DNA of 51,891 nt, counting the filler, from Stramenopiles sp. TOSAG23-6 (Eukaryota): the NCBI GenBank assembly GCA_900128565.1. It is 2 parts of 2 records of this genome, joined end to end, with 100 filler letters (N's around TTAATTAATTAA, not from the genome) between each part and the next. Parts side by side here need not be neighbours in the genome. Positions count along the whole stretch, not along the records: positions 1 to 25,962 come from LT635990.1; positions 26,063 to 51,891 come from LT635991.1. One strand, written 5' to 3'. Numbering within the stretch: the stretch's first letter is position 1; every line of letters starts with the position of its first letter. Made by a program: the position numbers and the translations under genes. The notes under the pieces are model-generated. The model saw only the letters and a list, made by a program, of their open reading frames with translations. It ran no database searches and was not told the origin of the DNA. Shown here piece by piece: positions 54 to 38,376 of the stretch.

Positions 54-1639
54 ATGGTTCTACTAAAGAAAAGAGTGTTTCACCATATATGACCACTACC
101 GATGTACCATTTTCAAGGTGAGCACGGAGAAAAGAGTCAAGTATTATGCAAAAATATGTCAAATTTGAAATTTCTAAGGTACAAAACTTTTCGATTTTCT
201 AGGGAAAAAAAAATAAATAAAAAGTTGACAAAACTTTTCAATTTTCTAGGGGAAAAAAAAAAAATAAAAAGTTGACAACGTACAAATTCACTGCCATTAA
301 TGAGAACTCGATCTTTACGCCGTTGATCAATTACGCTAGCAACCTTTCGGGAACTCACTTCAAGTTCATGTTTCCACATACTCATCGCAAGATCCAAGCG
401 TAATAATAACATATCTTTAGTTACATACATGTATTTTAGAAAAATATTTCAAAAAAAATCTAAAAAACTTTGTTAGGTACAAATTTTTTATACTAAATTT
501 GATTTTTCTGTAAAAAAAAAAATAAAACATACATTGCAAGTGGAAACTTAATATTTGGTAGTTTTGGAATAATTTTTGTTAAAATTGTAGAACCTGACTG
601 AGCCGCATGCATCATATCGAATGTTTTCATTAAGTTTAACTTTGAATCTAATAACCGTTGAGTTGTAAAAACCATGTATTTTGGAAAAATATTTCAAAAA
701 AAAAAATTAAATTTTTGTTAGGTACAAAATTTCGTACGAAAAAAAATTCATACAAAAAAAAAAGAATAAAACATACATATCAACTATAGAACTATAATCA
801 TCACCTGAGCATATATTGTGAAAAATATTTTTTTTTTTGGAAAAAAAATTCGTTAGATACAAAATTTCGTACGAATTTGTTTTTGAAATTCATGATGAAA
901 ACGTACATAATTTACGCAGTTGAAGTTTCAATGCGGAGAGTTGCGCTTGATGACCCTTAGCTTCTTTTAGCTCTTTAGCCGCCATTTTGCACAGAGTATA
1001 ATTGATTATTTCATTTTCATGTCGTATACTACCGTGTATTGCATTATAGAACAAAGCTGATATGAATTTTTCGTGGTTCCTAATTTCTTGTTGGACTTCG
1101 ACTTCTTGTAGTATTTTTTCTACTTCTTGCAAAACATTATTTGGATCTGCACGTTCTGTTATCCTTAAAATTGGTTCTAAATGCTCAATTTTAGTTGAAC
1201 TCATTTTATTCGAACGTTTGATGTCTTCGAGAGATACTTTGGCTCGCGAAAGTAATACACAAATAAATTCATCATATACTTCTATTGGGCAATGTTTCTT
1301 ATTCGCAATTTCAATAGAAACTTCTAAACTTTGTACAAGAGAATACAAAGTATTTTGTAACATCTGTAGATCAGATAGAGAAGATTGATATCGCGGATGC
1401 ATGCTTTGAGTAGTCGATCGTGCCCTATCGATTTTTGTACTATATTTCCTATATATTTCGTCTTTTATATTAATTATGTCACTCAAATAGCCGGACATGC
1501 CACGTATTTTGGCAGAAAGATGCATCACAGCGGAAACTTCGGGTGGGAAATCAGCAATTCCAACGTCCATCCCAACTGAACGATGTAGCTGGAAATTCTC
1601 TAAAACGAATACAAGCAAAAAACTAAAAGGTACTCTCAT
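1..1639 (-). CDS. Hypothetical protein with probable signal peptide, 3'-partial; exons 1639-907, 810-777, 673-533, 428-284, 138-54, continuing off the window
   Basis: ORFs 890..1639, 493..675 and 137..430 join into one open frame (...LRKLC-SGDDYSSIVDM-VFTT...FPLAM-YVTK...GSEF-DSFLRAHLENG...) after removing four complete element introns. Hydrophobic N-terminus. No family recognised. Confidence 0.75.
139..283 (-). mobile_element. Element intron, 145 nt, GT...TT, with TT direct repeat
   Basis: gaatTT|GTACGTT...TACCTTAG...AATAC TT|gac. Removing 145 nt keeps the frame; removing only GT..AC (143 nt) gives a stop. Contains an internal ~47-nt duplication. Confidence 0.8.
429..532 (-). mobile_element. 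Element intron, 104 nt, GT...AT
   Basis: gcaAT|GTATGTTTT...TACCTAAC...AAAATAC AT|g. Joins ORF 493..675 to ORF 137..430 in frame. Confidence 0.85.
674..776 (-). mobile_element. Element intron, 103 nt, GT...AT
   Basis: gatAT|GTATGTTTT...TTCGTACGAA...TACCTAAC...CAAAATAC AT|g. Frame restored. Confidence 0.85.
811..906 (-). mobile_element. Element intron, 96 nt, GT...AT
   Basis: ttAT|GTACGTTTTCATC...TATCTAAC...CACAATAT AT|gc. Removes the in-frame stop at 890. Confidence 0.85.
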
Positions 1640-1936
1640 TTTCTTTTGGCAATTATACTACTAGTATATGTGAAGAATCCCGAGATCTTGATTCTTGAGA
1701 GGAAAGTTTCAAGTTTGGCTATACATACAACTTGAAAAGGTAGCAAACAAAAATTGTGTGTGTGACGTCATCATGTCACTCAGGATCATTTTCTCAATGC
1801 TCAATGCTCCTGTGTTATATTATACTTAATAGCAATTCGAATTTTTTTTAGGCTGTCAAATAAGAATGCTACTATCTACACTTACATTTAAGTAACCTCT
1901 TTAACAGAGAGCACTCGCAATTGTAATTGCCATCCA

Positions 1937-3739
1937 ATGGTCTCAGCTATCATTGAAAATGCAGTAGAATCACAAGTTAGCCGACCCATTACAGGGATAG
2001 TAGCAGTCCCCACTTCCACTAAAATAGCTAAACCAAAGTCTTCCGTTAAAAGTGTATCATCACTCGCAACTGGCGAATCTGCAAAACTTGGAGTTGTCGA
2101 GTCGACCGGACTTCGCTCTCGAGGATCAGCAAAGCAACGAACTTTTACGCCAATTCCAGGAACAAATGAGGTATACGTACATTGTGCATATGGTTGTGGA
2201 ACTACATATCGCACACCGGCTCAGCAATCGAAGGGGACGTACAGACCTCCACCAGACAAAGTTGGGAAAAAGGAATGGCACAAAGTTATCCGTCGACTAA
2301 ACTCCCACGAATCTCAACGATGCCAAAATATGCCCGCATATAAGACAGCAAAGTCGGTAAAAAAATCAAGAATTGCTAAGCATAGTTGTAAAGAAATTAC
2401 AAAAGTTAATATGAATCCGGCAGGAGCAACGGTCCAACGTCGTTTTCGTGTTGTTTCAGGAGGCTTGGCTGACCTATCAAACGTTGAGTCTGATCCAAAT
2501 AGATTGGCTACATTGAACAGCACAAAACCAATGTCAATTACTTCAATTATAGATAACCGTATGAAACCGAGATCTTCTTCTTTGGATTATAGCTCTGCAC
2601 AAATCTGGGATTCAGATTCAGCAAATCATAGCAATACGAAAATTCGAAATGCATTGATGCCCCTTCGGCAGTATAGTGTGCCTTGCAACAACACTTGGTC
2701 AAACATTCCCCCACCTCCACCATCTGATAAATCAGATCGTGCTTGTTTAGCTTGTTTGGATGGGAAAATTTGGTTGTCTCATGTACGTTTTATTTTATTT
2801 TTAATTTCGATTTTTGTTTCGTACGAAATTTTGTACCTAACAATTGTTTTTAGATTTTTTTTGAAATATTTTCCAAAATACATGAAGAATATCAATGGGT
2901 CAGTTTAAATTTACCGGAAGCACATCTCATGTCCATTTCTAGTGTGAAAGAAGCTATTTCCATGTTGTGCACACGGCAATGGTCTACTGGTGGTGATAAA
3001 AAGAACACAGACAATATATTAGCAGCACATTCTGAAAAAAACAATATAATTGCACAAAATGCGATTTTAAGTAAGGCGACTTTCAATAGCAAAGAACATC
3101 AAAACTCCGTTGATCGAATTATGGAAGGCATTCTCAAAGGAAACGCACAGAAAAATATACTTGCTACATCAAATAATGAAAACTATAAGACTTCAAATGT
3201 TTCAACTGGTCAGAATACAAAAAATACGAAAACAATACGTTTTCATCATTCATTTCAAATTCTATTTTTTTTCATACGAAATTTTGTACCTAACGAATTT
3301 GGAATTTCAAAATTTTTAACAATACATAAAGCAGTTAATAAGAGCGGAAAATCTGGAGAAGATTCAGTCTTAGCTTCATTACTTTTACAGTTGAGCCGAG
3401 CACCAAGAATAGGCGGAAGCGTTGATAATTCTCCAAGGGATATAATGAGAACATCTTCAATCGGATCTTATGGCTTACCAAGTAAATCAGATATTTCATT
3501 AAACATTTTAGAAGCTTCAAGAAATTCAAGAGACGCTACTCTTCCTGGGATTCCTAGTGATAAAATACATGTATGTTTTATTTTTTTTCAAATTCGAATT
3601 TTTTTCGTACGAAATTTTGTACCAACTGTCTGACATATCTTGTATTGGTAATAAACGTCTTCATATCAATGCATGTGGGGATTCCATAATTAATTTGGAA
3701 GGTAAAAACAAGAGACTTCGTCCAAGTTTACTTTCATAA
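1937..3739 (+). CDS. Hypothetical protein with putative C2HC zinc finger; exons 1937-2782, 2884-3234, 3328-3570, last exon uncertain
   Basis: ORFs 1937..2908 and 2929..3633 join (WLSH-EEYQWV) after intron removal. Contains C-x3-C...H-x4-C (HCAYGC...SHESQRC) within a basic region. The 3' end depends on a truncated element at 3571. Confidence 0.65.
2783..2883 (+). mobile_element. Element intron, 101 nt, GT...AT
   Basis: tcAT|GTACGTTTT...TTCGTACGAA...TACCTAAC...CAAAATAC AT|gaa. An internal TAG at 2851-2853 would also be in frame, so this copy alone is not diagnostic. Confidence 0.8.
3235..3327 (+). mobile_element. Element intron, 93 nt, AT...AT
   Basis: aca|ATACGTTTTCATC...TACCTAAC...ACAATAC AT|aaa. 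Length is 3n with no stop, so intron status rests on family similarity. Confidence 0.65.
3571..3636 (+). mobile_element. 3'-truncated element copy
   Basis: AT|GTATGTTTTATTT...TTCGTACGAAATTTTGTACCAAC, then lacks the T-tract and TTCCAAAATAC end. Confidence 0.65.
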
Positions 3740-3958: not shown

Positions 3959-6122
3959 TTACCATTCCATATCCGCCTTTTTTATAACATCATCTTGGAA
4001 TATGTCATGAAGATGTTTTCTCATAGACGTGTACAACGACGCTAACATACTTTCAAGCCAGTCTTCTAATTTATTTGTCGATGAAACTCCAGGTATAGAT
4101 GAATGCTGTGGTGCTTCCCCTTCGTTGACCTGTGCATACAATTCAGTATATCGAGGTAAAACTTCCTCCCGAATCAAATCTTTGATTTTCTGTATTGGAA
4201 ATTCTCCCTTCAGTTTCTGTTCTATGTTATTTATATGAAGACTGATTGAGGGCGCAACAACACAAAGTCTTACCATAGAGTGCATTGCTGCCTTGAGAAT
4301 ATCCTCTTTCATTTTAGCTTCATTATTCCTACATAAGTCTACAATATTGCGATTTTCATCTTCCAAAGTTTTGCAACGTAAACGAAGACATTTTACATCT
4401 TTTTCCAGACGTCTTTCACTACTTTGAGATTCAGTATACTTTTCTTTCTCTAACTGCATATTTGCTATTTGATCCAAATACGTCTCAATCTGTAGTTTTG
4501 CTTGCTGATTTTTCCATTTAGCGTCATCTCGCTCCTCTTTAGATAGTACTAACTTTTTAGCAATGTCGGCAAACTTATTTTCATTATTTTCTTGTTTAGA
4601 TTGAGACGATATTTTTAATTCTCCAATTTGTATTTTCAACCGTTTTATTTCCATATCTTTTACTTTATGTCTCTGCCTTTCATTTCTCATCGTGTCTTTT
4701 GATGACTGTACCAATTTTCGTAATCCTTTGACTGTATTGTAAAAAATATTTAAAAAAAAAATCGTTAGGTATGAAATTTGGTACAAAAAGATAAATTCGA
4801 AATTAAAATGAAAACGTACCCTCTTGCTGTAGGAAATGGACTTCATCTTTTAACTCAAGATTTTTTTCATTTTGCTGTATATTATCTTTCTCAAACAATG
4901 AAATGCGTTCATCTTTTTGAATAGATTCGCACCGAGATGTTTTTAATTGAAGTTCAAGTAATTCAATAATTGTCTGTTTTTCGTCTAATTCCATTCGTAG
5001 TTTTTTATTAGCAGCCAACAATTTTTCAATTTCATTTGCTTGGTCCCGATGTTTATCAGTGGCCTTGTCATTCGCTTCAATCATTGATTCTCCCATTATA
5101 GCTAACTTCTTGCACAAACTATTTCTCTCATTATCAATTTGCTTTTGATATGCCTCGTCTATTTTATATTTTTTTTCATTTTCTATTTTAATTATTTTTG
5201 CTGTTTCTTGTGCTGTTTCTTGTGCTGTTTCTATTTGACGAAGTTTTTGATTACTTATTCTAAGTTTTTCTTGCATCTCAGAAAGATCTCGATGGAGCTT
5301 TTTGTTTCCAGCTACTAAGTTTGCATTGTTCTTCGAAAGCTGAGAATTATTTTGAGTTATTTTCCGAATATTTGCTTTGAAATTTGCACATGTAACACAA
5401 TCTCTCTTCTTTGGTGTCGGGGCTGATTGCGGTCGCCCGCTTGCCGATATCCTGAAACCTCCTCCGACAGCAAGTTTTTGACCTCTAGTACCTCCGAAAT
5501 ATGAGTTAGAAGGATGATTATCCAGTGCAATTCGTTCTAGTCTTTTGACTTTTCGCTTCAGAAATAAATTTTGTTGTATTAGTTTGTCTCGATCTATATC
5601 GTCTTGTAAGCCCTGTACTTTGAGAAATCCATCTGAAAATTGTTCTACTCTTGATTTTTCAGCACGTCCAAATACATCTACTAATGAATCTTGTAACTCG
5701 AAACCATCTTCGCTACTCATATGATTTCTATTTGCTATTGGGTTGAAAAATCTATGTCTTGGATCAAGCAGTCTCACTGCACCACTTTTTGATTTTATAT
5801 TTGTTGTTGGCATATTAACTTGTTGCTTCTCTGATCGCCAACTTTGATTTGCTGTGAGAGGTCTTTTTTGTATTTGTTTCTTTTTTTTTAGGCGTGACTT
5901 TTCGAGATTCTTAAGGGTAGTACTTTGAACTTTCGTCTTATGACGATTGTACCGACTGACCTGTTTTTGCTTTGGTTGACTCAGTCGAGACCACTTATCA
6001 ACTTTCTTCTTTGCTTTTACCACCCGGATTCGATTCTTCGTAGATTTATTGGTTTTTGGGTTCAAAGAACGTTTACTCTCTCTCGGCTGAGTTATACCCA
6101 CAATTGACTTTGAGACAAGCAT
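3959..6122 (-). CDS. Coiled-coil protein; exons 6122-4820, 4731-3959
   Basis: ORFs 4803..6122 and 3959..4846 join in frame (QQE-VKGLRK) over an 88-nt GT-AG element intron. K/E/Q-rich heptad character. Confidence 0.8.
4732..4819 (-). mobile_element. Element intron, 88 nt, canonical GT...AG
   Basis: gaGG|GTACGTTTTCA...TACCTAAC...TTACAATAC AG|tc. Frame restored. Confidence 0.9.
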
Positions 6123-6559: not shown

Positions 6560-8755
6560 ATGGTTGGCTCAAAATTAAGTTCTATGGCTGCGCCTTCCGC
6601 GGAAGAAAAACATCGCTGGAGTAATTTGTTAAATTTTGTAGAAAGCGGACAAGGCGGTTTAGGATTTGATCCACTTCATTATGTAGAAGAATTGAAAAAG
6701 AGTACAGATTATATTCCTGAAGGAATGGAACTGAACACCATTGAGGATAGTTACCAGGAGAATATGACCGACACCTTACTTGATAGTTTCTTTGAAAAGC
6801 TAAGAGTTTCTACCCCAGAATTATCTAATAGTGATTCTGTGCATACAACTACTCCAACTGATGAAGAATATCCCATAAATGCGTCACTTTTTGAAAATAC
6901 GGATACAGAAACGGCGCAATCATCAGCTGAGAACTTTAGGCTAAATAATTGGGAACAAGAAAAACCAGTACACAAAGTAATGTCATATGGAGCAAGTACT
7001 CGAGGAGATGTATCTCAACTTGATGGTGAATTACTAAGCCCTGCATTGAATACACGTCATCAACATGCCCGTATTCCGGATAAAATAAGTGTTTCAGTTA
7101 AAATACCAATACCAAGAGGTAACCAAGGTGGTTCGTCTCAAAGAAACACCGAGACTGATGTTGAGGAATTTATTCAAGGAAAGTTATACAGCAATGAAAA
7201 CTCCAAAGATGTTTTGGATACACAAAACACTACTCTAGAAGTACGACATCAGACTTATCAACACAGGATGCGTGAGGAGCAGAATCGACTTCATCAGAAT
7301 AGGATAAAGGTATGTTTTATTTTTTTAATTTCGAATTTATGTTTCTTTTTCGTACGAAATTTTGTACCTAACGATTTTTTTTTGAAATATTTTTCCAAAC
7401 TACAGGGAGCTCATCGCAGTACTAGGAAGCAACCACTTGAATTATGCTCCTCCACTTCTATTTTCCGTACCAAAAAAACAATTACACCCAGTAAAAATAA
7501 TTCAGTCGATCTGTCTAATGCAGTATCTAACTTGGAATACAAGAATTTCGGTGAAATATCGACTACACCATCGTTAGAATTTATTACACAAAAACAAATT
7601 GAAGCAAATTTCACGCAAAAGAAAAAAAATCGAATACCTAAATTATCTTCAATGTTTTCGGAAACTTTCACAGCTGCTACACCTAAAATCGAAGCAAGTA
7701 TGGCAGTAACACCAAGAATAGACCGACCACATAAAGGTTATAGATATGTATGTTTTATTTTTTTTTTATGATTTTTTTTTTCGTACGAAATTTTGTACCT
7801 AATATATATATTTTTTTTTTTGAAATATTTTTCCAAAATATATTTCAATGGTGAAGTTTTAACAAAAAATGTAATAAATACAAAACAAGTTGATGATTCA
7901 AAAGGTAAATTAACATCCACAATTACCCATGGAGAAATAATTGAAAATACTAATATTGATGTAATTACTCAACTAAGATCTGCAAATGAGTCCCTTCAAA
8001 AACAGATAATATTATTGAAATCAGAAAAAGAAATGAAAAACTTTCGAATAGTTGAGAATACCGAAATTGCAGATTTAAAAAAACAAATAATCTCTACGAA
8101 AGAAGAGTTATGTAAAAGTTTAGAGGAAAATAAATCAAAGCAAGAAGAGATTTTTCGTATCAAAAGAGACAGCACCATGAAAGAGAGTGAACTTAGTACA
8201 CAACTTAGTACTGTTGTAGCGGCTCTCGATAGGGCAAACAAATTAATTGCAACAATCAAATCAAAAAAGCTGCATGTAAATCATAACTCTTTAATAGGAT
8301 TGCCTAAAGTACAGGAATCATTCAGTACATTTCCTACCAGTCTAAATGGATTGCCGAAGGTGCAGGAATCATTCACTTTAACTCCAGCGAGTATAGCTCT
8401 GAATCTAGATAAACAACGAATAAAAGCTCTCACAAAAGAATTTCACTTGGATGTGAAATCTTATGTAAGTAAAAGAAGTGAAAGAAGTGAAAAATTATCA
8501 AATGTTATCACTTCTTTGTCAGAAACAAGTAGAGAAGTAACTAGGAGATTGATGAATAGGATGAATGATTCTGTCTTGCCAAGTTATAAGGATACATACC
8601 CTAATATTCACGACAAAACATCAAGTGATCCAAGTTATAGTAGTTTGGATGATAGAATTAATGGATATAGATCACGACCTACAATGGTAAAGAGAAAAAA
8701 ATATTCATTTAGGAAACCACGCCCAGTTCAAGTGAAAGCGTTTACATATCTCTAA
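6560..8755 (+). CDS. Hypothetical protein with C-terminal coiled coil; exons 6560-7309, 7406-7747, 7844-8755
   Basis: First ATG at 6560. ORFs 6527..7771 and 7793..8755 are in the same frame and are separated by an element carrying a stop. Confidence 0.75.
7310..7405 (+). mobile_element. Element intron, 96 nt, canonical GT...AG with AG direct repeat
   Basis: aaAG|GTATGTTTT...TTCGTACGAA...TACCTAAC...CAAACTAC AG|gga. Confidence 0.9.
7748..7843 (+). mobile_element. Element intron, 96 nt, GT...AT
   Basis: tAT|GTATGTTTT...TACCTAAT...CAAAATAT AT|ttc. Removes the stop ending at 7771. Confidence 0.85.
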
Positions 8756-8883
8756 ATTTTAGTTTATTTGTACCGATCAAAATAAATTTTGAAAATTCTT
8801 ACATTTCAGATTTTCGTTTTATAGTTCCTTTGTTGACACATACTTTTTCCCAACCAGCAGTTACAATGCTAGAAGTTCGTTTG

Positions 8884-11295
8884 TTAAACAATCACTCTTT
8901 GACTTAATTCAATAGATCCAGTTCTATACAACGTTTTGACACGCCCGTTATCGACATTAATATCATGTTTTTGTTTTTCCTTAGCATATCGCTCTTCATC
9001 GTGAATCTTTGCATTTGTTTTCATCTCCTTCAAAATTCTTTTCATCAAATGTCTTTCTCCAAACCGCATTTCAACGTGAATTCTGCAAGGTTTGACATGA
9101 TCTTCACTGAAATGGCCGAGGTCTACATCTAGCCAGGCCTCATTTGCTTCTCCATTAGGAAAGATATGGTTTCCTTCTACATTTACAACATCGCGAATAT
9201 TAACATTACAAAAACCTATGACCCTATCCAATTCAGTAAGATGACCTTCAACGACATCCATTAGACTAATTTTTATTATATCATTTGGCATTCCTGGTGT
9301 TTCCACATGAAACTTAAATTCATTCTTTTTGGTATACACAGGATGGAGAGTATTGTACATGACTTGCGTCGAATAAGATTGATGATTACATTCAATTAAA
9401 ACGTAAGGATCGCACAAATCATCTGTGGAACCATCGGCAGGAACTCCAGCCACTTCAAGGACCTTTATATATAATCTATAGCTTCCGCGTACTCTGCCAA
9501 TGTGTTTACCTTTGCCACCATCGGTCCATCCTTTCATTAACTTAAATGCAATAAAATCAACAATTATATATACGACAGCTGCTGAAGCAATTGCCGCTAC
9601 AAAGGCAGCGAGAAATGCATCAAGATTAAATGCACCTACTCGACCTGTGACACGAAATATTATACGAATTCCGTGTCGATTGAATACTTCTCGATGTGTA
9701 GATGACTCTGAAACGTGTTGTAATAATTTATACTCCATTTTATTAATCACGTTTGCTGTCATGGTATATCGATAATTATCAAGATTAAATGATCCTCCCA
9801 TATTATTATAATCTAATGTGAGAGACACAATGACACCTGCATGTATTATGGAAAAATATTTTTTTTTCCTGTAAAAATTCGTTAGGTACAAAATTCTCTA
9901 CCAAAAACAACACTTATATTTATGAAAACATACATATCGATTTGTTTCGCCCTGGCTTGATTCCGATTCTGTATCTAGATCTACAGATGCCATTTTCAAA
10001 ATTGTACCAACTGTCAAAATATCCATGAGCTCATTATTTTTGCAACTACAGGACTTTTTACTAGCATCTTTTCCATGTATTATGAAAAATATTTTTTTTT
10101 GATTTTTTTTGTTAGGTATAGAATTTTGTCTTAAAAAAAAAAATGAAATTCAATTTTGAAAATGTACATCTTCATTTGAACAATCTCCTGGAGATTGATC
10201 TATGTATTTTGGAAAAATATTTCAAAAAAAATTGTTAGGTACAAAATTTCCTATAAAAAAAAATAGAATTTGAAAAAAAAATAAAACATACATATGTGAA
10301 TTCTCTTTACAACCTACTGAGATGAAGTGAGGACACTTGTAGTTGTTCTTTGTGTATTGTGAGCATGGATCGATAAAATTGCCCTCAGTGTCTTTGAGGT
10401 ATCCGACCATTTCTCTTTGGTGTTTTTCGACAGACAAATTTTTTGTCCCAAAAATACTTGGAATTTCAGCATGCATAGAATGGTCAATTTTTAATGTAGC
10501 AAACTCAACATTCCTTGCAAAATTAGATTGAAGAATTTCTCCTTTTTTTTTATTTACCCACTCGTTATGACTATCACGAGTTGAAGACTCAGTTGTCAAT
10601 CTGGTACTTATAAAAATTGTATTCAATTCCGATGTGGGATAGACCAATTCAAAAGAGTCATAATTTTCACATGGAAAGACATATCTATATTGTTTCACCC
10701 TATTTTTATAGTCGCTATATGAACCTAATCGAAGACGATCTTGGAGAAACCATTGTCCGGAAATTGTATCACATTTTTCTTTAGTTGTTTGCTGGAGAGC
10801 CACAGAAAGTTCATTAGCAACAATATAGGTAGATTGGTTAGGGAGTGTCCCTGGAGTGGTCTGAATTCGAGTACCATTACCAATTATTCCGAGTGAACCA
10901 CAGGTTTTGCAAGTGTTTGACACTACGCAAAATCCTTTAGGACAACTTGGTTTGCTTAAATTTACAGTTTTTTTATCAGTATCAACGCAGGCTAGAGCGT
11001 CCTTTGAAGGTAAGCAATATTCATACATCACACTTGGCTTGGAAAAATCTGATGAAGCAGCGAATACTCCGGGTCGTACGAAACCCGTGGGTTCTGTGAT
11101 ATACGCATATCCAAACGCACTAAACATTTTCCAGATAAGAAAACTTAGAATACCCAATTGTAATAGTGTATTTAACAAACCTAGCCTCCAATCATTTATG
11201 ACAGCAACACGGGCCGTAGTATATGGGAAATATCGATTGAGGGTACGTGTTGAAGGCATTGCGGTTGTTATCTTATTGTACAACTTTGTCATCAT
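8884..11295 (-). CDS. P2X: P2X purinoceptor-like channel with C-terminal C2 domain; exons 11295-10292, 10201-10168, 10074-9934, 9840-8884
   Basis: N-terminal YTTAR (YxTxK/R) then TM1 (RLGLLNTLLQLGILSFLIW). Ectodomain DILTVGTILKMASVDLD, RYAGVIV, NYRY. Pre-TM2 RHGIRIIFRVTGRVGAFN and TM2 ending VDF. C2 motifs LYIKVLEV, CDPYV, NTLHPVY, DRVIGFCNV. Confidence 0.85.
9841..9933 (-). mobile_element. Element intron, 93 nt, GT...AT
   Basis: cgatAT|GTATGTTTTCA...TACCTAAC...CATAATAC AT|gca. Gives NRY-AGVIV. Confidence 0.85.
10075..10167 (-). mobile_element. Element intron, 93 nt, GT...AT
   Basis: gAT|GTACATTTTCA...TACCTAAC...CATAATAC AT|gga. Confidence 0.85.
10202..10291 (-). mobile_element. Element intron, 90 nt, GT...AT
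   Basis: catAT|GTATGTTTT...TACCTAAC...CAAAATAC AT|a. Removes the stop at 10222. Confidence 0.85.
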
Positions 11296-11567: not shown

Positions 11568-13228
11568 ATGTTGAGTGGTTTAGATATGAAATTCGAGCGT
11601 ACACAGAATAGCATACCATATTCTTGCAGTACGTTAAACCAGAGTCACATGTACCAGGAGAAGACGCGATCAAAAACGTCTGCATATTTGCCGAAAGTCA
11701 TTCTCATGGGCGTTTTCATTATTGTTTCAATACTATTCTTCATGTTAAAGGTTTTATCCGGTCAGTGGACTATATTTGGTCTAGGTGAATTCCAAAACTG
11801 CTCACAGAGTATCGATAACTTACAAGGTAAATTAGCTAAAGCTAGTGTGAATTATGCAGATTTGCAGAAACGATTCAATCTTTTATTGTATTCAGTTAGA
11901 ACTCATGCTCCTCATATTGAAGATATATACTTGATGAATGCACAAACTTCCGGCGGTAGTGCTTTTAATTACTACAATGCAAATGACCCAAATTCGAGTA
12001 GGCCTAATAATAATCATACATCCCACTTACAGCATATTCAACACCAGTATCAAATGAACTATGCACAGCAAATGCAATATATGCAACAGCTTCGTCAAAA
12101 GCGAATCCATGAGGAACAAATCCATCAACAGCAGAAACAACGGGAGCATCCAAACAACATAACTGAAGAGTCTCCAGAAACTAAAGCATCAAGAATCGAA
12201 AGAGTCAGAGCAATAATTCGAATGCCAGAAACTTTGACTAATGAATGTAAAATTCCTTCGGACTTTGATTGGACATTTTCAACGATTATTGAGGATTTCA
12301 AAGCACAACAGCTACAAGATAAATTCTTACTCACAACATTATTACCAGAGGATAAACAGAGCCATGGAACATTTGTCGAGGTCGGTGCAGGGGATGGAAT
12401 TATTTTATCAAGTACATATTTTCTAGAGAAACATCTTTGCTGGAGGGGAGTTTGTATCGAACCCTCACCTTCAGTGTTTCATCATTTAAAACAAAATCGC
12501 CCAGATTGCATAGCTTTACACGGTTCAATTTGTACGGAAAATAAATCTCGAATATTTATTGAAATCACATCTGAAACTGGGAAATGGACAGGCTTATCTG
12601 GATTCAAAGATAACTTTTCTCCTGCTCATTGGGAAATGGTCAATAAAAGTGTAAATGAAAAATCATATCAAATGGAAGAGATTGAGGTACCATGTATGTT
12701 TTATTTTTTTTTCAATTTCAAATTGTTTTTTTTTCGTACGAAATTTTGTACCTAACAAATTTTTGTTTTTTTTGGAAATATTTTTCCAAAATACATGTCA
12801 TCGTTTGGATACAGTCATGGAACACCTAGGGATGAAACGAGTAAACTACTTAGTTGTTAAGGCTGATGGTAGTGAGTTGCAAGTTCTTCAAACTATGAAC
12901 TTTACTCATGAAACAGATGTAGATGTTGTACAAGTAGAAGTTTTTAATCAAAGTGGATCTAATATTGACGCTATAACAAATTCTATGACAACTCAAGGAT
13001 TTTGGGGTCCTTTCACTATGCCTGTAAATTCTAAAGGTACTACATTAGACTACTTCTTTATTCATCATCAAGGTGTATCTAGACCAATTGTTGAGAAACA
13101 CATTCAGAACAATCAAAGACAACAAACTTATGCCTATCATCAACCACCACCACCACCTCCTCCTCCTCCTCCTCCACCCCCTCATAAACAGCAGCAACAA
13201 CAACAACAACGACGACAACAGCAACAAC

Positions 13229-16457: not shown

Positions 16458-17508
16458 ATGAACCAGCCTTGGTATGTAATTCTTTTACTTTTGACATTGT
16501 CATCCAGCCTTACCTATGTAACATGTCGGGAAATTGGTGGGAAAGTGTTGCTAGAAACAGTCAAAGCAATAACGTTGAAGAAGGGTAAATACACGAACTC
16601 TAGACGAGTCTCGGCAATTCCACAGATAACATGTATAAATGGTTGTCATCTTGCCAGCCCAAATAGAATTCAATGCAAAAACTCAGGTTCGGATGGTGTT
16701 GATATTCAGTGGGAATGTTCTACAGATCTTCCAGCGGGTGTTTCGTTCGAAGCAGTTGAAGTTCTATGCGAAGGTTACGATTATCCGGAAGATGAATATG
16801 TTTTAAAAGGTTCCTGTGGAGTAGAATATTCTTTATCGGGTCATCGCAGCGATAATCATTCCCAACATAGCAGTTGGGGCAATGGCTATGCTGATAGTGA
16901 TCCATATGGTTATTCAAGTTCAGATTATAGCTATGATAGATCAGAGAGTACTTTTAGTTTTTTTCGGTTATTTATTCTTATCGCTATAATTCTTACTGCT
17001 TATTCTTGCTGTTTTAGTGGTGTCAACAATACAACGAATACAGGGCGCGGTGGAGGTCCTGGAGGTGGAGGTGGAGGTGGTGGAAATAATTGGGGAGGTG
17101 GAGGGGGTGGCCCACAAGGTGGAAATCCTCCTGGAGGTAATGACTGTGGACAACAAGGAACGGGTTTTGGAGGCGGTGGATTTTTTCCCGGAGCAGGACT
17201 CGGTGGATTACTTGGCTATGCCTTGGGTCGTGCAACCGGTGGTGGAGGATATGGAGGATACAACAATAGATATCGCCGAAATGGATATGCTGCTGGTGGT
17301 TATAGAAATACAGGTGTACGTTTTCGAAATTGATTTTTTACCTAAATTTATTTTGTACCACATTTCGTACCTAACAAAAAAAAATCAAATGAAATGTTTT
17401 TTCACAATACATGGTGGAGGAATGAGATTCTCGAGTAGAGGTGGATCCTCCTCCAGTGGTGGTGGTACACGTCGTGCTACAGGTTTTGGGGGGACGCGCC
17501 GTCGTTAA
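16458..17508 (+). CDS. SARAF: Store-operated calcium entry-associated regulatory factor (TMEM66); exons 16458-17315, 17413-17508
   Basis: Signal peptide, then TNSRRVSAIPQITC, GSDGVDIQWEC and VLCEGYDYPEDEYVLKGSCGVEYSL, a TM segment and a Gly-rich region. The conserved C-terminus TRRATGFGGTRRR is reached only after intron removal. Confidence 0.93.
17316..17412 (+). mobile_element. Element intron, 97 nt, GT...AT
   Basis: gGT|GTACGTTTTC...TACCTAAC...TTCACAATAC AT|ggt. The five downstream AGs up to 17440 are all out of frame. Confidence 0.9.
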
Positions 17509-20027: not shown

Positions 20028-20083
20028 TAAAGAAGACTCGGAGACTCCACAAGATTCAGACAGAAGTCCAAATAGTTAGGGAA

Positions 20084-20273
20084 TTATATTTTGATACAAA
20101 GAAGAAAAACAACATTTGATTTTGTTAGGTACAACATTTACTATGAAAACAAATAGAAATATTTGTACACAAAACTATATATTATTTTTTAATCGAATAA
20201 ATATATCAAAAAAAATCATTAGGTACAAAATTTCGTACGAAAAAAAAATGAATTTGAAAAATATTTCTTTTAC
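20084..20273 (-). mobile_element. Two adjacent degenerate element copies (~20273-20177 and ~20168-20084)
   Basis: Each has a TACCTAA(C/T) motif and an AATAT end; one keeps TTCGTACGAAATTTTG. Donors are diverged (GTAAAA, GTACAA). Confidence 0.6.
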
Positions 20274-23200: not shown

Positions 23201-25894
23201 AAAATCACCTATTTGAAACTTTGGGCGCATGTTTGTGTTACCATTGACTTTCTGAAATGCCTTTCCAGCTAATGCACCTTCGATACATTTTACGTCAAAT
23301 AAGCCCAAATCCTGATTTTTTTGGATCTGCGTTTTTACAGGATGTACATTATTTATTTCTGCTACTGCCCAAATACGTTTTGCATAAGGCCCGACGGTTG
23401 AGTCTGGATTATCTATGAGGCATTCAACTACACCATCAACTACAAAATTTGAGTTACAAAGTTTCTTCCATATAATTTCTCGTTTTCTCTCTTCAGCGTT
23501 GAAATCTGCTTTCGCAATTCTTGTTTCTTCGTGATCTTCTATCAGATTTTCTAAATTATTACCTCCTTGATCTTTGGATACTTTGGTAAGATTGTATGGT
23601 GTTTTCGGCAGTTTATGTACAGGTGGAATAATCCCCCAATTGCACTTCTGATCTTCTGCAGCAACTTGTATCTTATCGAAAGCTTCATTATCTGACGATT
23701 GCCCATTAATATTACAACGTGGCTCGCCATTAACATTACAACGTGGTACTTTATATATATAATGAATTCGTTCATTTGGAATCATCGTTGGTGCGATAAG
23801 CGCTTGTGGACGTTTTTCTAGAGAAGATTTAAGCTCTTCAATTTCTTTTCTACGTTGTTTTCCTGTTGGGATTATACCAGTACATTGCTTATAGTATTTT
23901 TGAACCCTTGCGTTTTCTTTCTCTAACCTCATAGAACTATTATCGAGCATATAATACGAGAAAGGGTTCCATGTTGAAGAACGAAGTGACCCTTCTTTAA
24001 GCTTATCACATATATCCACTACTTTGGCGTGAAAAGTATTATTGTAGTTTTCACAAGGCTTTTTTGACACAGCAGATACGAGATCTCTCCCACCCTTATA
24101 ACGAATATATACCGCTGCTGCTAACAACGGAACTTGTATCCCAAAATTTTGAGTAGTACCAGATATATTTTGTTCATTTGCTACCCCAACTTCACCATAA
24201 GTAAAGTGAAGCGCGGTTTCGCCAGCAACATTTTGATGATTCACATGTGCTCCACTATCAATTAATAACTTAACAATTTCTAATACTGAACAATATGCTG
24301 GGCTTGGGTGACCTCGTCTCTTTTGCTTACTAATTTTTCCATTTTCCATGTTAATACTAGAACTAGAAGATGTACTACTAATGTCATCGGTTTGAATGCT
24401 TGAATTTTGACTTAATAATTTGTCAGGCACTTTTGTAAAATTTGGCGTCAAACCATTACTTGTAGGTTCATTCGGTGGTTCAAATTTGTTCCGTTTCTTT
24501 CGAACTTCGTGAAAACCCCATCGGCATGCATGTATTTTGGAAAAATATTTGAAAAATAAATCGTTAGGTACAAAATTTCGTACGAAGAAACAATTCATAC
24601 AAAAAAAAAAAAATAAAACATGCATGTATAAGTGGGGAGTTCATATCTGCATCAATTTCATTAGGATCACTGCCTCTATCCAACAAACGAACAACGCAAG
24701 CTGAATCTGAATTAGCCGCAGCTCTCGACAGAGCACGAGTATTGTTTACCCCCAAATTAAATGAAAGATAGTTTTGGAGTCTCAAATCTTCTTCGGCATG
24801 AATTTTGATCCAAATATTTTGTTTCCATTCAACTTCCGCGTCAGCTTTGCCAGCCTCAAAATCCTCCATCATTTCGACGAAATCTTTTGATACTTCGTTG
24901 GTACTTTCAAAATTAGACATACTGTTTATAGAAGTTGTGCTTTCTGTATTTTTTTCTACTTCCTCTCTATGACGATTTTTTTTCTCTTTTTCATATATAT
25001 CGTGAAAAAATATTTAAATTCCTTTTTTGTTAGATGAAAATTTTAATACGAAAAAACATTATTTTGAATTCAATATTGAAAATGTACATGCATCCTTTAC
25101 AACTTGTTTTCGCCGAGCCCATTCTATTTCGAAATCATTTCCACCTAATTTGGCAAAGCGTAACCAGCGACGATATTTCAAAATATGACGCCGGAATGTA
25201 TATTTTTGAATGATACTTGCGGAGTAGTTTTGCCGTTTTGCAAGTATTTCGTCAATTGAGATTTCTCCAGAGATTTGACTACGTAGTTGAATACATTCAT
25301 CCCACCCACGACTATCCCACATACGAACTCCTAATGTACGATCATTATTTAAACTAGGATTTTCTTTTATTTTATTCTTTTGGGTGTCTACCTCTTGGTT
25401 CTCACTATATGGTTTAGGCCTGTAATGAAATGTGTGATGACGCCACCCATCTGTAATGAAACAATCATTTAAAGTGTACCATTTTTTATCAAGAATGATT
25501 GGAGAAAATTGAGGTATATTTGGAAGATTTAAGAAGCGACAAGCTACCTTAAAATATTTCCTACGATCCACATGTAGTGATGATATAGAGAACTTGTCAT
25601 GAAATGGAGCAACAGTACCATCTCCTTCGACTATGACATCATTTCCAGTTAAATGCACGCAATGTAATCCTTTATTACCTTGGAAAGCTTTAGTTAAATG
25701 TTCAATATTTATTTTGCTACACCCAATTCCACAATGATCTAACTGAAGTACTTGCAATACTGTATTTTGAAGTAAGGCATTGGCTAACACAGGGATCGAT
25801 GACCAAGTTATCCACCCAGCATCAATTTCTCTTGTCGGTTTCGTAGTAGACACTTCATTCTCTACTGGAGAAGGATTTACATAAATGGTAGAGA
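20270..25894 (-). CDS. Large multidomain protein (LRR, IQ-like, ankyrin, EF-hand pair), 5'-partial; exons 25894-25088, 24994-24624, 24529-20270
   Basis: RNI-like LRR LANALLQNTVLQVLQLDHCGIG. IQ-like SASIIQKYTFRRH. Ankyrin NSPLIH-ACRWG and GETALHF. EF hands DKDDSGDITPDE and DTDMNGRIDADE. Three ORFs join in frame. Confidence 0.85.
20628..20709. repeat. 39-bp coding tandem duplication (EIENTSEKVKQKV x2)
   Basis: Identical units start at 20628 and 20667. Confidence 0.9.
24530..24623 (-). mobile_element. Element intron, 94 nt, GC...AT
   Basis: atacAT|GCATGTTTT...TTCGTACGAA...TACCTAAC...AAAATAC AT|gcatgc. Restores the ankyrin repeat. Confidence 0.9.
24995..25087 (-). mobile_element. Element intron, 93 nt, GT...AT
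   Basis: gcAT|GTACATTTTCA...CATCTAAC...TTCACGATAT AT|at. Removes the stop at 25059 and joins ORF 24564..24920. Confidence 0.8.
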
Positions 25895-25962
25895 ATGTAT
25901 TTTGGAGAAATATTCCAAAAAAAAAATGTTAGGTACAAAATTTCGTACGAAAAAAAATTGAA
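25895..25962 (-). mobile_element. Element intron, 3' part (cut by assembly gap), ending ...AAAATAC AT
   Basis: TTCGTACGAAATTTTGTACCTAAC...CTCCAAAATACAT on the minus strand. Confidence 0.85.
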
Positions 25963-34545: not shown

Positions 34546-36649
34546 TCAATCATTCCATTGTGTACCTGCGTCAACTTGGAGCATACTCGCAAGCTCCATA
34601 GTCTGTCTATAGACTACAAAACCTCCTGGTTGATCACCCGATGGTTTAATACATTGTTCAATCGTATCCTTACATTTACTTTCAGTTGCCTCGAGATTAT
34701 CATCACTATTTTCAATACCCTGTAATTTAGTTAAAGGATTATTATTAAGACTCTTCTGTACAGCATGTATCCTATTTTTTTTTTCTTTTTCATTTATTTG
34801 AGCCCCTCCTGAGGAACCACATTTGTATGTTTTACAATATTCCTGAATATATTTACCGTATTCGAAATTTTCTANATACAAAAATAATACTAAAATAATT
34901 CTTGTTCCTTTTGTTATTGGAAATCCAGCGTGACGCAACGGACCAGCAAAAAGAACAGCTTGTCCAATTTCAGCTTTTATTACTTTTCCATCAGGCCCCA
35001 ACGCCTCAAACCAAGTCCCTCCACCCTCAAAATTTGAGTTCAGCGATACAGTGAAACTCATCGATGATGTATCACAGTGCTCAGGAAGAGACATGGACTT
35101 ATCACATTCATCATACCGAACAATAAATGCATCATGAACTCGTAATCGATTTGAAGGAGACGTCCCATCCGCAAGTATTGGGAATGCTGCAGCAACCATA
35201 GGATATAACCTTGAATGTAATAGTTCTAATAACCACGAGCTCAATTTTGGTATATCTTCAACCGCAATATCAGTAGTCTTTACACTAGATTGTCTCACTG
35301 TAGGCCATTTATCATTTTTCTCAACTTTTATATATTGATTAACTTCTTCTAATACATTATCACACTCTTCTTTGGTAAGTAGGGAACTCTTACTCCTAAA
35401 GACGACTCGTTTACCTTGAGCACTTTTGTTGAATAATGATAGTGCCGGCGTTTGGTTAAAATGAGAAGAGTGAACTTCAAAAGAGTCTAAATCACATTCC
35501 ACATCAAATACACCATTACCATGCGCACCCTGACCAATTAAATGACTACCAGTATAAACATTACTACAGTCAGCGACTACGAAGGAGTCCCAACAATCGC
35601 GTTTTTTTGCTTGGCGTTTTAAACGCGGACATGAAGTTATTGCTTTATGCCCATTTGTCCAAGCATTGTATGCCGCTGTATGATTGTCACTATGGATATT
35701 TACCCATCCTGCGAGATAATGTATTGTGAAAAATATACGAAATTAGAAATTCGTTAGGTACAAAATTGGGTACAAAAACAAATTGAAACTCATGATGAAA
35801 ACATACATATGCTTCAGCTGCGTCCTTAAGAGACACAAAATTCCCATCGGGCTTTGTTTTCCATCTCAAAAAAGCATCACAAACAAATTGACACATTTTC
35901 AATGCCTCCTGTTTTTTGTTCGCACGAAACAAAATTTTAGCAAGCGAAATTGTAAAAGCTGAGTTATACTGAGGAAATTCGTTTATCGCAGATTTCAAGC
36001 AAGCAATTGCCTCGTCTTGGCGGGACAATCCATCTAAAGCAGCAGCATATGTTATGTACACTGATTTTGCCGTACAAGAGTCATCTTTTTCCCATATAGA
36101 ACACTTTATCATTTGGCGACAAAGATAAACGTCGTCAGCATATTTTTTCTTCAGTTTTATGATAGCAATGTCTTCTATAGATATACCATCAGCTAGTAGC
36201 ATTTTAGCTTCACGATTTGCAATATTTTCATACGCAATATCAGCGTCTATTACACCATCGGTGTTTTGCATTTGTATAGCGTCAAAGGTTTGTGGTACTA
36301 CACGCGGTTGTGGTAATTGTTGAGGCAAAACTGAATGTCTCGTAGAAGTAGTGAGAGCTATACCCTTTTCTTTGATATCTTTCGAAATTTGAGCATTTAT
36401 TCCCTCTCCATTTTCATCGCTCTGAAAAAATACACTTTTTAGTCTATTCGCTGCAATGTGTGTTAATGGAATAGATCCTGTATCTGATTTTAAATAGTCT
36501 AAAACATTGCAACGTGATGGACACTTCTTTGTAGCATTTTCGGCTGAAGAGCTAGATAAAGCTACGGTAGAGAGAGATCCTTCTTCTCCTGAATCAGCTG
36601 ATACATCGCCAAACAACAATGTAAAGTTATCAGTCCGTTCTTTATCCAT
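34546..36649 (-). CDS. TPR-like region plus 2OG-Fe(II) oxygenase (prolyl/lysyl hydroxylase-like); exons 36649-35807, 35718-34546
   Basis: DAFIVRY, HCD (HxD), FEGGGTWF, LRHAGFPITKGTRIIL. The two ORFs join through 72 open codons after intron removal. Confidence 0.85.
35719..35806 (-). mobile_element. Element intron, 88 nt, GT...AT
   Basis: gcatAT|GTATGTTTTCATC...TACCTAAC...TTCACAATAC AT|tat. Frame restored. Confidence 0.88.
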
Positions 36650-36952
36650 ATTTATTTAAGTTCATTCATCTAATATTTACGTTTTAGGGAAGAAAGCATT
36701 AATTAAGGTGATTAAGGTTTGTTGTAAGTCAAAGTCAAACTCAAACATTTCCATATTCAGCTGAACTTTAATTGACACCCGGTAACAAAAGGTTTTTCGA
36801 TATTTCGTGCTCCGACTAGTGCCTTTTCTTATGGGTACCTGTAAGAACTTTCTTTACGAACGTTCTTCTTGACGTTGTTATGCAAATACAAGTGTACTAC
36901 ACATTTCTTTTTCCAGGACTTGAACAATTCATTCAGAAAGTTCCTGTATAAA

Positions 36953-38376
36953 ATGGCAGAAACAAGATCAAGCCCATCTCGAAGTCATCTTCACCGGTAC
37001 GTGATCTTAAACTAATTACAAATAAGTTTGAACGTGAGAGAACCAACTCGATTGTTGTATTTTCTTTTCATTTCTTAATATCCGTTTCTATAATAACTGG
37101 TTTTACTTACTATCCTTTGAGTTATCTATAAAACTTCAATTTACAGTCTTGCAAGATTAGTTCTTCCTATACGAGACTTACGTAACTTACCCAAGATGCA
37201 GCTTTATGCAAAGTTGCGGAAACAGTTCGGATGGAATAGACTTACCCGTCGTGAACGTAGGCAAAGTCAGAAGTTAGATAAAACCGATGAAACAGAAAAG
37301 TTGGAAAGAGCCAGATTTCGATCCAGTAGTGGTAGTGAACAGAGACCCGAGTCATCTCAAAAGAACAATAGTGAAGTCAATGCATCTCCAGGACAGAAGC
37401 GTAAGTTTTACTCTCGTTGTAAAAGTCAAATACGAAAATCAAGACGCCCAAAATCTCCACGCATAGATGAAAGTATTGCTAATCTTATTCGGTCAAAACA
37501 TCACAGTGCCTCAGATGACCCCCAAGGTGGTAAGAAAATCAAAATGAAAGACAAAACAAAAGTTTGGGAGCAGAAAACTGACCCTATTACTCTGTGTGAT
37601 CTTGGAAAGAATGTGTTTACGACAAAAAGGTCAGATGGAAAAAAAGGTACTTCTTTCGATGTTGAAACGTTAGTAAATTATATATTGTTGTCAGGAGATT
37701 TCACAAATCCTACTACCAGGGTTACATTTACAGAGTCCGAATTAAAACGCTTAGATAAATGCGCTAATAATGCTGGACTAACTTTACCAAGTGTACGGGA
37801 CTTGCGAGACGATTTGAAATATCACGAACAAAGAAAACAAAAGAAGTTTCGAAGAGATGCAATGCTTGGGTTAGATCGTTGCCTAGGTGAAGTGGTTGGT
37901 AATATGGTCGATTTGATTGAAACCTGTGAAAATGCAGAGCTTGGAGAAATTAGACTCGTTACTGAACTTTTCCCATTATTTTCATTTTATCTTCGGCAAA
38001 TTAGTGATGTAGATTCCGAATTCGCGCGTCAATGTGTGAAGCATTATCGAGAATACACAACAGGTCCGCCAAACAAGCCTATCAATGACGCCGGTGGATT
38101 AAAAGCACCAGTTCTTCGTTTTCTTGAACAAGCGCTGAAGTCTCCTAGAGTTGGTGACGATTCCCATTTTTTACAAGGGTTTTCTTCAAATACAACATCA
38201 GCAAATAATAGAAATAATGTTAGTGTACGTTTTTTATCTTGAATTTAAAATTTTTTTTTAATACGATATTTTGTACCTAACGAAAATATTTTGAAAATTC
38301 GACATATTTTACCAAAATATATGATGCTTCTGAGTCAACTTGTGAGTCTTCTCGAGCAGCAACGAGAACTCCATGA
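36953..38376 (+). CDS. Hypothetical protein with U-box/RING-like motif; exons 36953-36996, 37147-38224, 38323-38376
   Basis: The ATG at 36953 splices in frame through a canonical intron. Motif DPITL...FDVETLVNYIL...NPTTRVTF. Confidence 0.7.
36997..37146 (+). other. Conventional GT-AG intron, 150 nt, unrelated to the element family
   Basis: cg|GTACGT...TTACAG|t, phase 2, in frame with ORF 37196. Lacks the family palindrome and TACCTAAC. Confidence 0.7.
38225..38322 (+). mobile_element. Element intron, 98 nt, GT...AT
   Basis: aGT|GTACGTTTT...TACGATATTTTGTACCTAAC...CCAAAATAT AT|gat. Confidence 0.75.

What the first reader, a model, noticed from the sequence alone, without database searches (positions are those of the whole stretch)
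139..38322. Introner-like family whose introns mostly end in AT rather than AG
Seen: 19 complete related copies of 88-145 nt, all inside CDSs and all in the host's sense orientation. Each has a donor-like GTAYGT, a branchpoint-like TACCTAAC and an end ...ATAC/ATAT followed by 2 nt. Removing element+2 nt gives a continuous frame in all 19; 11 have non-3n lengths and several 3n copies carry stops. The terminal dinucleotide is AT in 16, AG in 2 and TT in 1. Splicing restores recognisable motifs in SARAF, FkbM, ankyrin and P2X proteins. Established: GTATGT and TACTAAC are U2-type signals; introners are known from Micromonas and Aureococcus; non-canonical intron expansions are known from Amoebophrya, Fritillaria and euglenids. 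Inference: this is a mobile intron family processed by a spliceosome with relaxed 3' AG recognition. I do not know of a described GT-AT-dominated family with this structure, but I cannot search the literature.
Basis: partly seen in the sequence, partly recalled or inferred. Interest (0 to 1): 0.95.

Follow-up and report, generated by a model that had tools for sequence, protein, structure and literature searches.

The report
Mobile introns that end in AT
A tiny mobile DNA element has filled the genes of an uncultured marine protist with introns that start normally but mostly end in AT instead of the near-universal AG, apparently because the last two letters are a copy of the insertion site.

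Summary
There are 19 complete copies (88-145 nt) of one AT-rich element, all in the sense orientation, in 11 genes between 139 and 38322. Cutting out exactly the stated intervals makes all 11 reading frames continuous. Homologues or a repeat consensus confirm three junctions to the residue.

The ends are AT in 16 copies, AG in 2 and TT in 1. They are identical in 14 of 19 copies, including the AG/AG and TT/TT cases (shuffle P about 0.002). That is the mark of a 2-bp target-site duplication. So this is a MITE-like "introner" that brings its own donor and branch site, while its acceptor dinucleotide comes from the insertion site, usually AT.

Two cautions apply:
- Nine copies could equally be read as AT-AC.
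- Direct RNA proof is missing. One copy is seen unspliced in RNA-library contigs, and no excision joint was shown. Support from RNA is limited to a roughly 12-fold depletion of element sequence in a polyA library and one contig that breaks at a predicted donor.

The host is a marine stramenopile, with Incisomonas (MAST-3) as the closest named relative. My literature searches found no GT-AT introner family. I rate it a new variant of a known kind, of high interest, pending junction reads.

The parts
139..283 (-). Complete copy, 145 nt, with an internal duplication. GTACGT...TT; the upstream exon also ends in TT.
429..532 (-). Complete copy, 104 nt, GT..AT. An 8-nt direct repeat spans both junctions.
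674..776 (-). Complete copy, 103 nt, GT..AT, young subfamily.
811..906 (-). Complete copy, 96 nt, GT..AT (ATATAT end). A polyA-run contig stops exactly at its 5' boundary.
2783..2883 (+). Complete copy, 101 nt, GT..AT.
3235..3327 (+). Complete copy, 93 nt, with the atypical donor ATACGT..AT and no in-frame stop.
4732..4819 (-). Complete copy, 88 nt, canonical GT..AG.
7310..7405 (+). Complete copy, 96 nt, GT..AG. The upstream exon also ends in AG.
7748..7843 (+). Complete copy, 96 nt, GT..AT.
9841..9933 (-). Complete copy, 93 nt, GT..AT, in the P2X gene. The junction is confirmed by gapless alignment to two homologues.
10075..10167 (-). Complete copy, 93 nt, GTACAT..AT, in the P2X gene.
10202..10291 (-). 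Complete copy, 90 nt, GT..AT, in the P2X gene.
12694..12796 (+). Complete copy, 103 nt, GT..AT, in the FkbM-type methyltransferase gene. The junction is confirmed by homologues.
13759..13873 (-). Complete copy, 115 nt, GTAGGT..AT, an old copy with an internal insertion.
17316..17412 (+). Complete copy, 97 nt, GT..AT, in the SARAF gene tail. It is seen unspliced in RNA-library contigs.
24530..24623 (-). Complete copy, 94 nt, GCATGT..AT, with an 11-nt direct repeat. The junction rebuilds an ankyrin repeat.
24995..25087 (-). Complete copy, 93 nt, GTACAT..AT.
35719..35806 (-). Complete copy, 88 nt, GT..AT.
38225..38322 (+). Complete copy, 98 nt, GT..AT.
1..53 (-). 5' part of a further copy (GTGTGT donor, AT upstream), cut by the window edge.
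25895..25962 (-). 3' part of a further copy ending in AT. Its 5' part is lost in an N gap.
3571..3623 (+). Copy lacking its 3' part, at the end of a gene. Read-through stops after 20 codons.
20079..20258 (-). Two degenerate copies downstream of the stop codon of the 20270-25928 gene. They are sense-oriented and outside the CDS.

Best explanation
This is a non-autonomous, MITE-like 'introner' of about 86-113 bp. Its own sequence runs from GTAYGT to ...ATAC.

Each copy carries:
- a yeast-like 5' splice site;
- a TACCTAAC branch site 33-44 nt from its end;
- a U-rich tract and a conserved 3' box.

Insertion duplicates two target bases, usually AT. In a sense-strand insertion, the spliceosome removes the element plus the downstream repeat copy. 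That restores the original coding sequence. The intron is therefore GT...AT, or GT...AG or GT...TT when the target was AG or TT. The acceptor dinucleotide is supplied by the target-site duplication, not by the element.

Shown here: the family, its sense-only placement, the 2-nt repeat, the exact interval that must be lost, and very high copy number in an independent DNA sample.

Inferred: removal by the spliceosome at the RNA level, the cut at GT rather than two bases upstream, and transposition as DNA.
For: Family and signals.

Sense orientation: all 19 complete copies, and the 5 partial ones, lie in the sense of the nearest gene. This argues for strand-specific removal, that is, removal from RNA.

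Frames: all 11 genes become continuous. 11 of 19 copies are not multiples of three, and 6 of the 8 that are carry stops.

Exact junctions:
- FkbM: gapless alignment to 2 of 2 homologues, with a conserved Cys codon assembled across the junction.
- P2X third intron: a conserved block spans the junction without a gap in both full-length relatives that were aligned.
- Ankyrin: the repeat spacing is rebuilt.

Target-site duplication: the upstream and terminal dinucleotides are identical in 14 of 19 copies (12 AT, 1 AG, 1 TT). The shuffle mean is 10.3, with P=0.0017. For the two non-AT matches P=0.006. AT makes up only 9.6% of window dinucleotides.

GT rather than AT-AC:
- A constant 5' GT fits 18 of 19 copies, whereas AT-AC fits 9 of 19.
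- The two AG copies are perfect GT-AG at the homologous positions.
- In all 5 imperfect repeats the downstream copy keeps A(T/G) and the upstream copy deviates.

Copy number: element bins have about 1,200 times the depth of unique bins in the independent DNA run X3. X3 contigs run from unique exon into the element at 4 loci.

PolyA run X9: the element-to-unique depth ratio is about 100, roughly 12-fold below DNA. One X9 contig (906-1141) ends exactly at the predicted donor with 7 unmatched letters (the ratios are my arithmetic from its table 2).

No transposase was found in the window.
Against: - No excision joint was among the 15 joints displayed; 443 were not shown.
- An X7 contig (16902-17567) spans copy 17316-17412 unspliced. 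A polyA X9 contig (17011-17372) runs 57 nt into the same copy.
- In X5 and X7 the element-to-unique depth ratio (about 850 and 1,300) is as high as in DNA. Those libraries therefore show no removal; the cause could be DNA carry-over or unspliced RNA.
- The tool warns that contig depth is a poor measure.
- An X9 contig ends at 7739, 8 nt before the donor at 7748, which the model does not predict.
- 4 of 18 copies have an AG between branch site and end that would have to be skipped.
- The terminal inverted repeat is only 5-6 bp and shows no covariation.
- No empty site was available to prove the duplication.
- G1 with a 3'-terminal U is not a known natural second-step pairing (my recollection of spliceosome structures, not from any call).
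Confidence: 0.6

Rival explanations
1. Same mobile element and same mRNA product, but the spliceosome cuts two bases upstream at both ends. The intron is then the upstream repeat copy plus the element, that is AT...AC, a known terminal pair.
For: 9 of 19 copies allow AT-AC without changing the product. AT-AC is an established natural intron class and AG-AC/AG-AT classes exist in Fritillaria (passages of PMC11282704). The element proper ends in AC in 15 of 19 copies.
Against: - The reading fails for 10 of 19 copies, which would be TT-AC, AG-AC, AT-AT or impossible.
- It ignores a conserved GTAYGT that would then sit at +3.
- It turns two perfect GT-AG copies into GG/AG...AC.
- In all 5 diverged repeats the upstream pair is not AT.
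Confidence: 0.15
2. The elements are removed from RNA by a non-conventional route guided by end-pairing or position, as in euglenid non-conventional introns or Amoebophrya hairpin introns. The donor-like and branch-like motifs would be incidental.
For: A direct repeat overlaps both junctions, and the ends with the flanking AT are complementary over 6 nt in 81.5% of cells. Both features are described for those systems (passages of PMC7789003; PMC11282704).
Against: - RNAalifold finds no consensus structure: 0 pairs.
- The terminal pairing shows no compensatory change, and all 500 shuffles score as high.
- The best conserved blocks are exactly a 5' splice site and a branch site at a normal distance.
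Confidence: 0.08
3. The elements are excised or polymorphic at the DNA level (IES-like, or recent insertions absent from many cells), so functional alleles lack them.
For: The ends resemble a transposon with a short inverted repeat and a 2-bp duplication. RNA-library contigs contain the element.
Against: - The strict sense orientation of all 19 copies is not expected for DNA excision.
- Independent DNA run X3 carries exon-element junctions at 4 loci at normal depth, and no element-free DNA joint was displayed.
Confidence: 0.04
4. The elements are not removed. The interrupted genes are pseudogenes or the elements are artefacts of a draft assembly.
For: The window is a gapped draft with 174 N. 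The dynein gene has a gap-like defect. One copy is seen retained in RNA-library contigs.
Against: - Frames resume precisely after 19 of 19 copies in 11 genes, and conserved residues line up across junctions.
- The same junctions occur in an independent metagenome.
Confidence: 0.03

Closest known systems
Introner elements of Micromonas pusilla and Aureococcus anophagefferens (MITE-like DNA transposons that become introns)
   Same: Both are short, non-autonomous, highly repeated elements lying in the sense orientation in genes. The element carries one splice site, and the other is created in the target-site duplication (as summarised in passages of PMC11282704).
   Different: In those introners the result is canonical GT-AG, and the Micromonas duplication is 3 nt. 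Here the duplication is 2 nt, usually AT, so the acceptor dinucleotide is non-canonical in 17 of 19 copies. The host is a heterotrophic stramenopile near MAST-3.
Non-canonical introns of Fritillaria borealis and other larvaceans
   Same: Both are transposon-linked intron gains, with many introns ending in 3' AT or AC and processed by a U2-type spliceosome (passages of PMC11282704, and PMC13326754).
   Different: Fritillaria introns mostly begin with AG, lack a strong donor consensus and are of many kinds. There, divergent U2AF paralogues are implicated. Here a strict GTAYGT donor and branch site are kept, and only the last two bases differ. Nothing is known of this host's U2AF.
Amoebophrya non-canonical introner elements
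   Same: Both are marine protist systems with repeated introns that carry direct repeats overlapping the junctions and inverted repeats (passages of PMC7789003).
   Different: Amoebophrya elements have 8-20 nt hairpin-forming inverted repeats and no preferred terminal dinucleotides. Here there is no predicted structure and the ends are uniform.
U12-type and U2-type AT-AC introns
   Same: These are non-GT-AG termini accepted by a spliceosome. An AT-AC reading is possible for 9 of 19 copies.
   Different: The donor does not match the U12 consensus as I recall it (/RTATCCTT), and the branch site lies 33-44 nt from the end rather than about 10-20 nt.

Membership tests
Introners (transposon-derived spliceosomal introns) | Many sequence-similar introns at unrelated gene positions | tested here: met
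   19 complete and 5 partial copies in 11 or more genes. Mean pairwise identity is 68%, and a young subgroup is 78-91% identical.
Introners (transposon-derived spliceosomal introns) | Transposon hallmarks: target-site duplication and terminal inverted repeats | tested here: met
   The 2-nt direct repeat is identical in 14 of 19 copies, P=0.0017. The inverted repeat is short: 6 nt counting the repeat, 81.5% complementary. No empty site was available.
Introners (transposon-derived spliceosomal introns) | Removed from transcripts by splicing | tested here: inconclusive
   Frames and homology require removal. No excision joint was displayed, one copy was seen unspliced, and the polyA library shows about 12-fold depletion.
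Introners (transposon-derived spliceosomal introns) | Canonical or accepted splice-site dinucleotides | tested here: not met
   The 3' end is AG in only 2 of 19 copies. The PNAS 2025 survey lists AG and AC as the expected 3' sites and manually re-checked families that were mainly noncanonical (passage of PMC12130899).
U12-type (minor) introns | Donor /RTATCCTT and a branch site 10-20 nt from the 3' end (recalled definition) | tested here: not met
   The donor is GTAYGTTTT, and the branch-to-end distance is 33-44 nt in 17 of 18 measured copies. The 18th value came from a mis-picked motif.
Euglenid non-conventional / Amoebophrya hairpin introns | Stable pairing of the intron ends and no conserved donor | tested here: not met
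   The consensus structure has 0 pairs, there is no covariation, and the donor is conserved.
Ciliate-type internal eliminated sequences | DNA-level excision that is independent of orientation, with the element absent from somatic DNA | tested here: not met
   All 19 copies are sense-oriented. The elements are present at the same loci in independent environmental DNA.

The most novel reading that the evidence does not exclude
This stramenopile's major spliceosome routinely completes the second step at a position fixed by the element (two bases after a pyrimidine that follows a conserved 3' box), whatever those two bases are. Thousands of introns with canonical donor and branch site would then end in AT, and occasionally TT. 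This would be the first lineage in which a transposon's AT target preference, not AG recognition, sets the dominant acceptor.
Probability: 0.5. Interest if true: 0.9.

Novelty: new variant of a known kind. Interest (0 to 1): 0.8.

Why it matters
The AG at intron ends is among the most conserved signals in eukaryotic gene expression. The known mass departures from it (Fritillaria, Amoebophrya, euglenids) also scramble the donor.

Here the donor and branch site stay textbook, and only the acceptor dinucleotide is replaced, apparently as a by-product of where a transposon lands. If junction reads confirm it, this is a clean natural experiment on how the second catalytic step picks its site. It would also show how far a spliceosome can tolerate G1 paired with a terminal U.

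There is a practical side. Standard gene finders that insist on AG will mis-annotate most genes of this abundant uncultured marine grazer lineage, and surveys of introners based on annotated GT-AG introns would miss such families.

Tried and rejected
**Whole genome.** None is held for this window, so genome-wide counts, snRNA genes and U2AF/Prp8 could not be examined.

**RNA data.** One run search and one read-laying run were allowed. All runs served are contigs, not reads. Parts of the stretch without RNA cover say nothing.

**JGI metagenome contigs.**
- A P2X exon as protein query found no relative.
- The 22-nt element core found 0 matches.

**Viral contigs.** A 17-nt core gave 6 single matches. 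The family profile scores only the motif itself there (best E=0.0012), so these are chance matches.

**Protein database.**
- No near-identical protein was found for the FkbM exon (2 distant hits only).
- No short fragment was found for the junction-proximal part of the 908-1657 exon.
- So no transcript-derived protein of this organism could be used.

**Other checks.**
- Rfam and tRNA scans of the window found nothing.
- Earlier findings of this scan held nothing on this genome or element.
- Consensus RNA folding found nothing.
- The break in the dynein gene at 29792-29809 was checked as a possible ordinary intron. It is a deletion-like gap with a frameshift and has no inserted sequence.
- The equal exon sizes in two genes (34 and 141 nt) were checked. 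The 141-nt exons share 81 of 141 positions, so I found no relationship.

**Literature.** Searches found no GT-AT introner family and no description of introns in MAST-3 genomes. Supplements were not seen and could hold splice-site tables.
Full report
**What the window is**

The window is eukaryotic. No prokaryote genome is held for it, GC is 36%, and it is a draft with four N runs. Its open frames are very long and tightly packed on both strands.

Genes identified:
- a dynein heavy chain and a four-domain cation channel;
- a P2X receptor fused to a C2 domain, SARAF, an FkbM-type methyltransferase and ankyrin/EF-hand proteins;
- 5-formyltetrahydrofolate cyclo-ligase, a COMM-domain protein and Pop5.

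The dynein motor is at most 68% identical to anything in the protein collection. All named hits among the 120 listed are stramenopiles. The 67% cluster contains Incisomonas marina, a MAST-3 flagellate. Runs holding the DNA are seawater metagenomes and metatranscriptomes. I therefore take the host to be an uncultured marine heterotrophic stramenopile. That rests on best hits, not on a tree.

**The observation**

A profile built from the motif-bearing copies finds 23 hits at E<1e-4. All lie in 1-38331, and none reaches E<0.05 in the last 13.5 kb. GTACCTAAC occurs 14 times against 0.18 expected.

I fixed the boundaries of 18 copies and of the 19th, 139-283 on the minus strand.
- Lengths are 88-145 nt and GC is 14-26%.
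- Every copy lies in the sense orientation of the long frames that flank it.
- Removing the 19 intervals turns all 11 host genes into single open frames. For example, the ankyrin/EF-hand gene reads 1823 codons instead of 289, and the P2X gene 751 instead of 397.
- Eleven of 19 lengths are not multiples of three. Six of the eight that are multiples of three contain in-frame stops.
- Shifting the 3' cut by 1, 2 or 4 nt destroys the frame wherever the flanking exons are long.

Frames fix the removed length only modulo three, so I tested exactness with homologues.
- FkbM gene: the conceptual product aligns without a gap across the junction to both homologues found. A Cys codon assembled from both exons falls on their conserved Cys.
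- P2X gene: the third junction lies inside a strongly conserved block that aligns without a gap to both full-length relatives examined. The other two P2X junctions fall in a variable, gapped region and are only consistent.
- Ankyrin gene: at 24530-24623 the join rebuilds an ankyrin repeat with correct spacing (judged by eye against the recalled consensus).

The last two bases of each intron repeat the two bases just upstream of the donor.
- They are identical in 14 of 19 copies: 12 AT/AT, plus AG/AG at 7310 and TT/TT at 139-283.
- Shuffling the upstream pairs gives a mean of 10.3 matches and reaches 14 with P=0.0017. The two non-AT matches alone have P=0.006.
- AT is 9.6% of window dinucleotides but precedes 12 of 19 donors.

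This is what a 2-bp target-site duplication with an AT preference looks like. The mobile unit is then GTAYGT...ATAC, and the acceptor dinucleotide is host-derived. The same logic has been described for Micromonas and Aureococcus introners, where the second splice site is created in the duplication (passages of the review PMC11282704). The difference is that here the duplicated pair is rarely AG.

The DNA metagenome agrees. Loose ends of many other copies begin just outside the flanking AT at 908 and 3569, and other copies share the ...ACAATACAT end (table 7).

**Where the cuts fall**

Because of the repeat, the cut sites are not determined by the product.
- GT-AT is possible in 15 of 19 copies, with GT-AG in 2, GT-TT in 1 and AT-AT in 1.
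- AT-AC is possible in 9 of 19 copies.

I prefer GT as the 5' boundary for four reasons:
1. GTAYGT is one of the best conserved blocks.
2. A constant GT fits 18 of 19 copies.
3. The two AG copies are perfect GT-AG at the homologous positions.
4. In all five imperfect repeats the downstream copy keeps A(T/G) while the upstream copy varies. That is what constraint on the downstream copy as a splice site predicts.

**RNA evidence**

This is the weak point. Only contigs of four runs could be laid, once.

Against splicing:
- No excision joint is among the 15 joints displayed; 443 were not shown.
- An X7 contig covers 16902-17567 straight through copy 17316-17412.
- A polyA X9 contig runs 57 nt into that copy.
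- In X5 and X7 the ratio of element-bin to unique-bin depth (about 850 and 1,300) equals that of the DNA run X3 (about 1,200).

For splicing:
- In the polyA run X9 that ratio is about 100, roughly 12-fold lower.
- An X9 contig (906-1141) stops exactly at the predicted donor of 811-906 with 7 letters that do not match the intron.

The ratios are my arithmetic from table 2: five element-rich bins over 16 element-free bins. The tool itself says that contig depth is a poor measure. The retained copy sits in the SARAF tail, where retention only shortens a low-complexity C-terminus. An X9 contig that ends at 7739 remains unexplained.

The strongest argument for RNA-level removal is indirect. A DNA transposon inserts in both orientations, yet all copies are in the sense orientation.

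**Structure and mobility**

- There is no consensus RNA structure.
- The 6-nt end complementarity shows no covariation.
- A 12-nt palindrome sits in the centre of 8 copies.
- No transposase is in the window.
- Copies range from a young group (78-91% identical) to old ones (55-70% identical).
- The window contains no other intron. The dynein break at 29792-29809 is a deletion-like defect.

**Comparison and novelty**

The kind is known: transposon-derived introns, some with non-canonical ends.
- Fritillaria: AG-AC/AG-AT introns and divergent U2AF (passages of PMC11282704 and PMC13326754).
- Amoebophrya: direct plus inverted repeats and no preferred termini (passages of PMC7789003).
- The 2025 introner survey lists AG and AC as the expected 3' sites and manually re-checked families that were mainly noncanonical (passage of PMC12130899).

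Nine literature searches found no GT-AT introner family. Passages of two MAST genome papers do not mention one. I did not see supplements.

My verdict is a new variant of a known kind. The sequence-level case is strong, and the splicing claim awaits junction reads.

Noticed in passing
window 29792-29809: The dynein heavy chain reading frame breaks here. About 21 residues present in three homologues are missing, only 16 nt lie between the two matches, and the frame shifts. There is no inserted sequence, so this is a deletion or an assembly error, not an intron.
   Followed up: partly
window 25963-26062: The dynein gene starts abruptly at homologue residue ~1330-1400, right after two N runs. A minus-strand gene lies just upstream. 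The scaffold join probably hides or misplaces the first ~4 kb of the dynein gene.
   Followed up: no
window 8884-11415 (-): This is a P2X receptor with a C-terminal C2 domain. A 678-aa relative on a 3,077-nt contig is one uninterrupted frame, so the three introns here look lineage-specific.
   Followed up: partly
window 730, 2817, 3603, 7348, 7779, 12732, 20231, 25941: A perfect 12-nt palindrome (TTTCGTACGAAA) lies in the middle of 8 copies, just upstream of the branch motif. It could be a protein binding site or a remnant of the transposon. Its role is unknown.
   Followed up: no
window 533-810 and 9934-10201 (-): Two unrelated genes each have a 34-nt exon followed by a 141-nt exon between element copies. 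The 141-nt exons share only 81 of 141 positions, so this looks like coincidence.
   Followed up: yes
window 38332-51891: The last 13.5 kb holds about five genes, including a 1733-codon channel gene, and has no copy of the element and no other intron. The insertions are unevenly spread.
   Followed up: no
window 534/671-674 (joints in DNA run X3): Many X3 contigs join an element 3' end to an element 5' end with 0-4 nt between them. Elsewhere in the genome, copies therefore sit head to tail, as expected if new copies land in the AT that flanks an older copy.
   Followed up: no
window 7558-7739: A polyA-run contig matches up to 7739 and then carries 18 unmatched letters, 8 nt before the donor at 7748. 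Neither the spliced nor the unspliced form predicts this.
   Followed up: no
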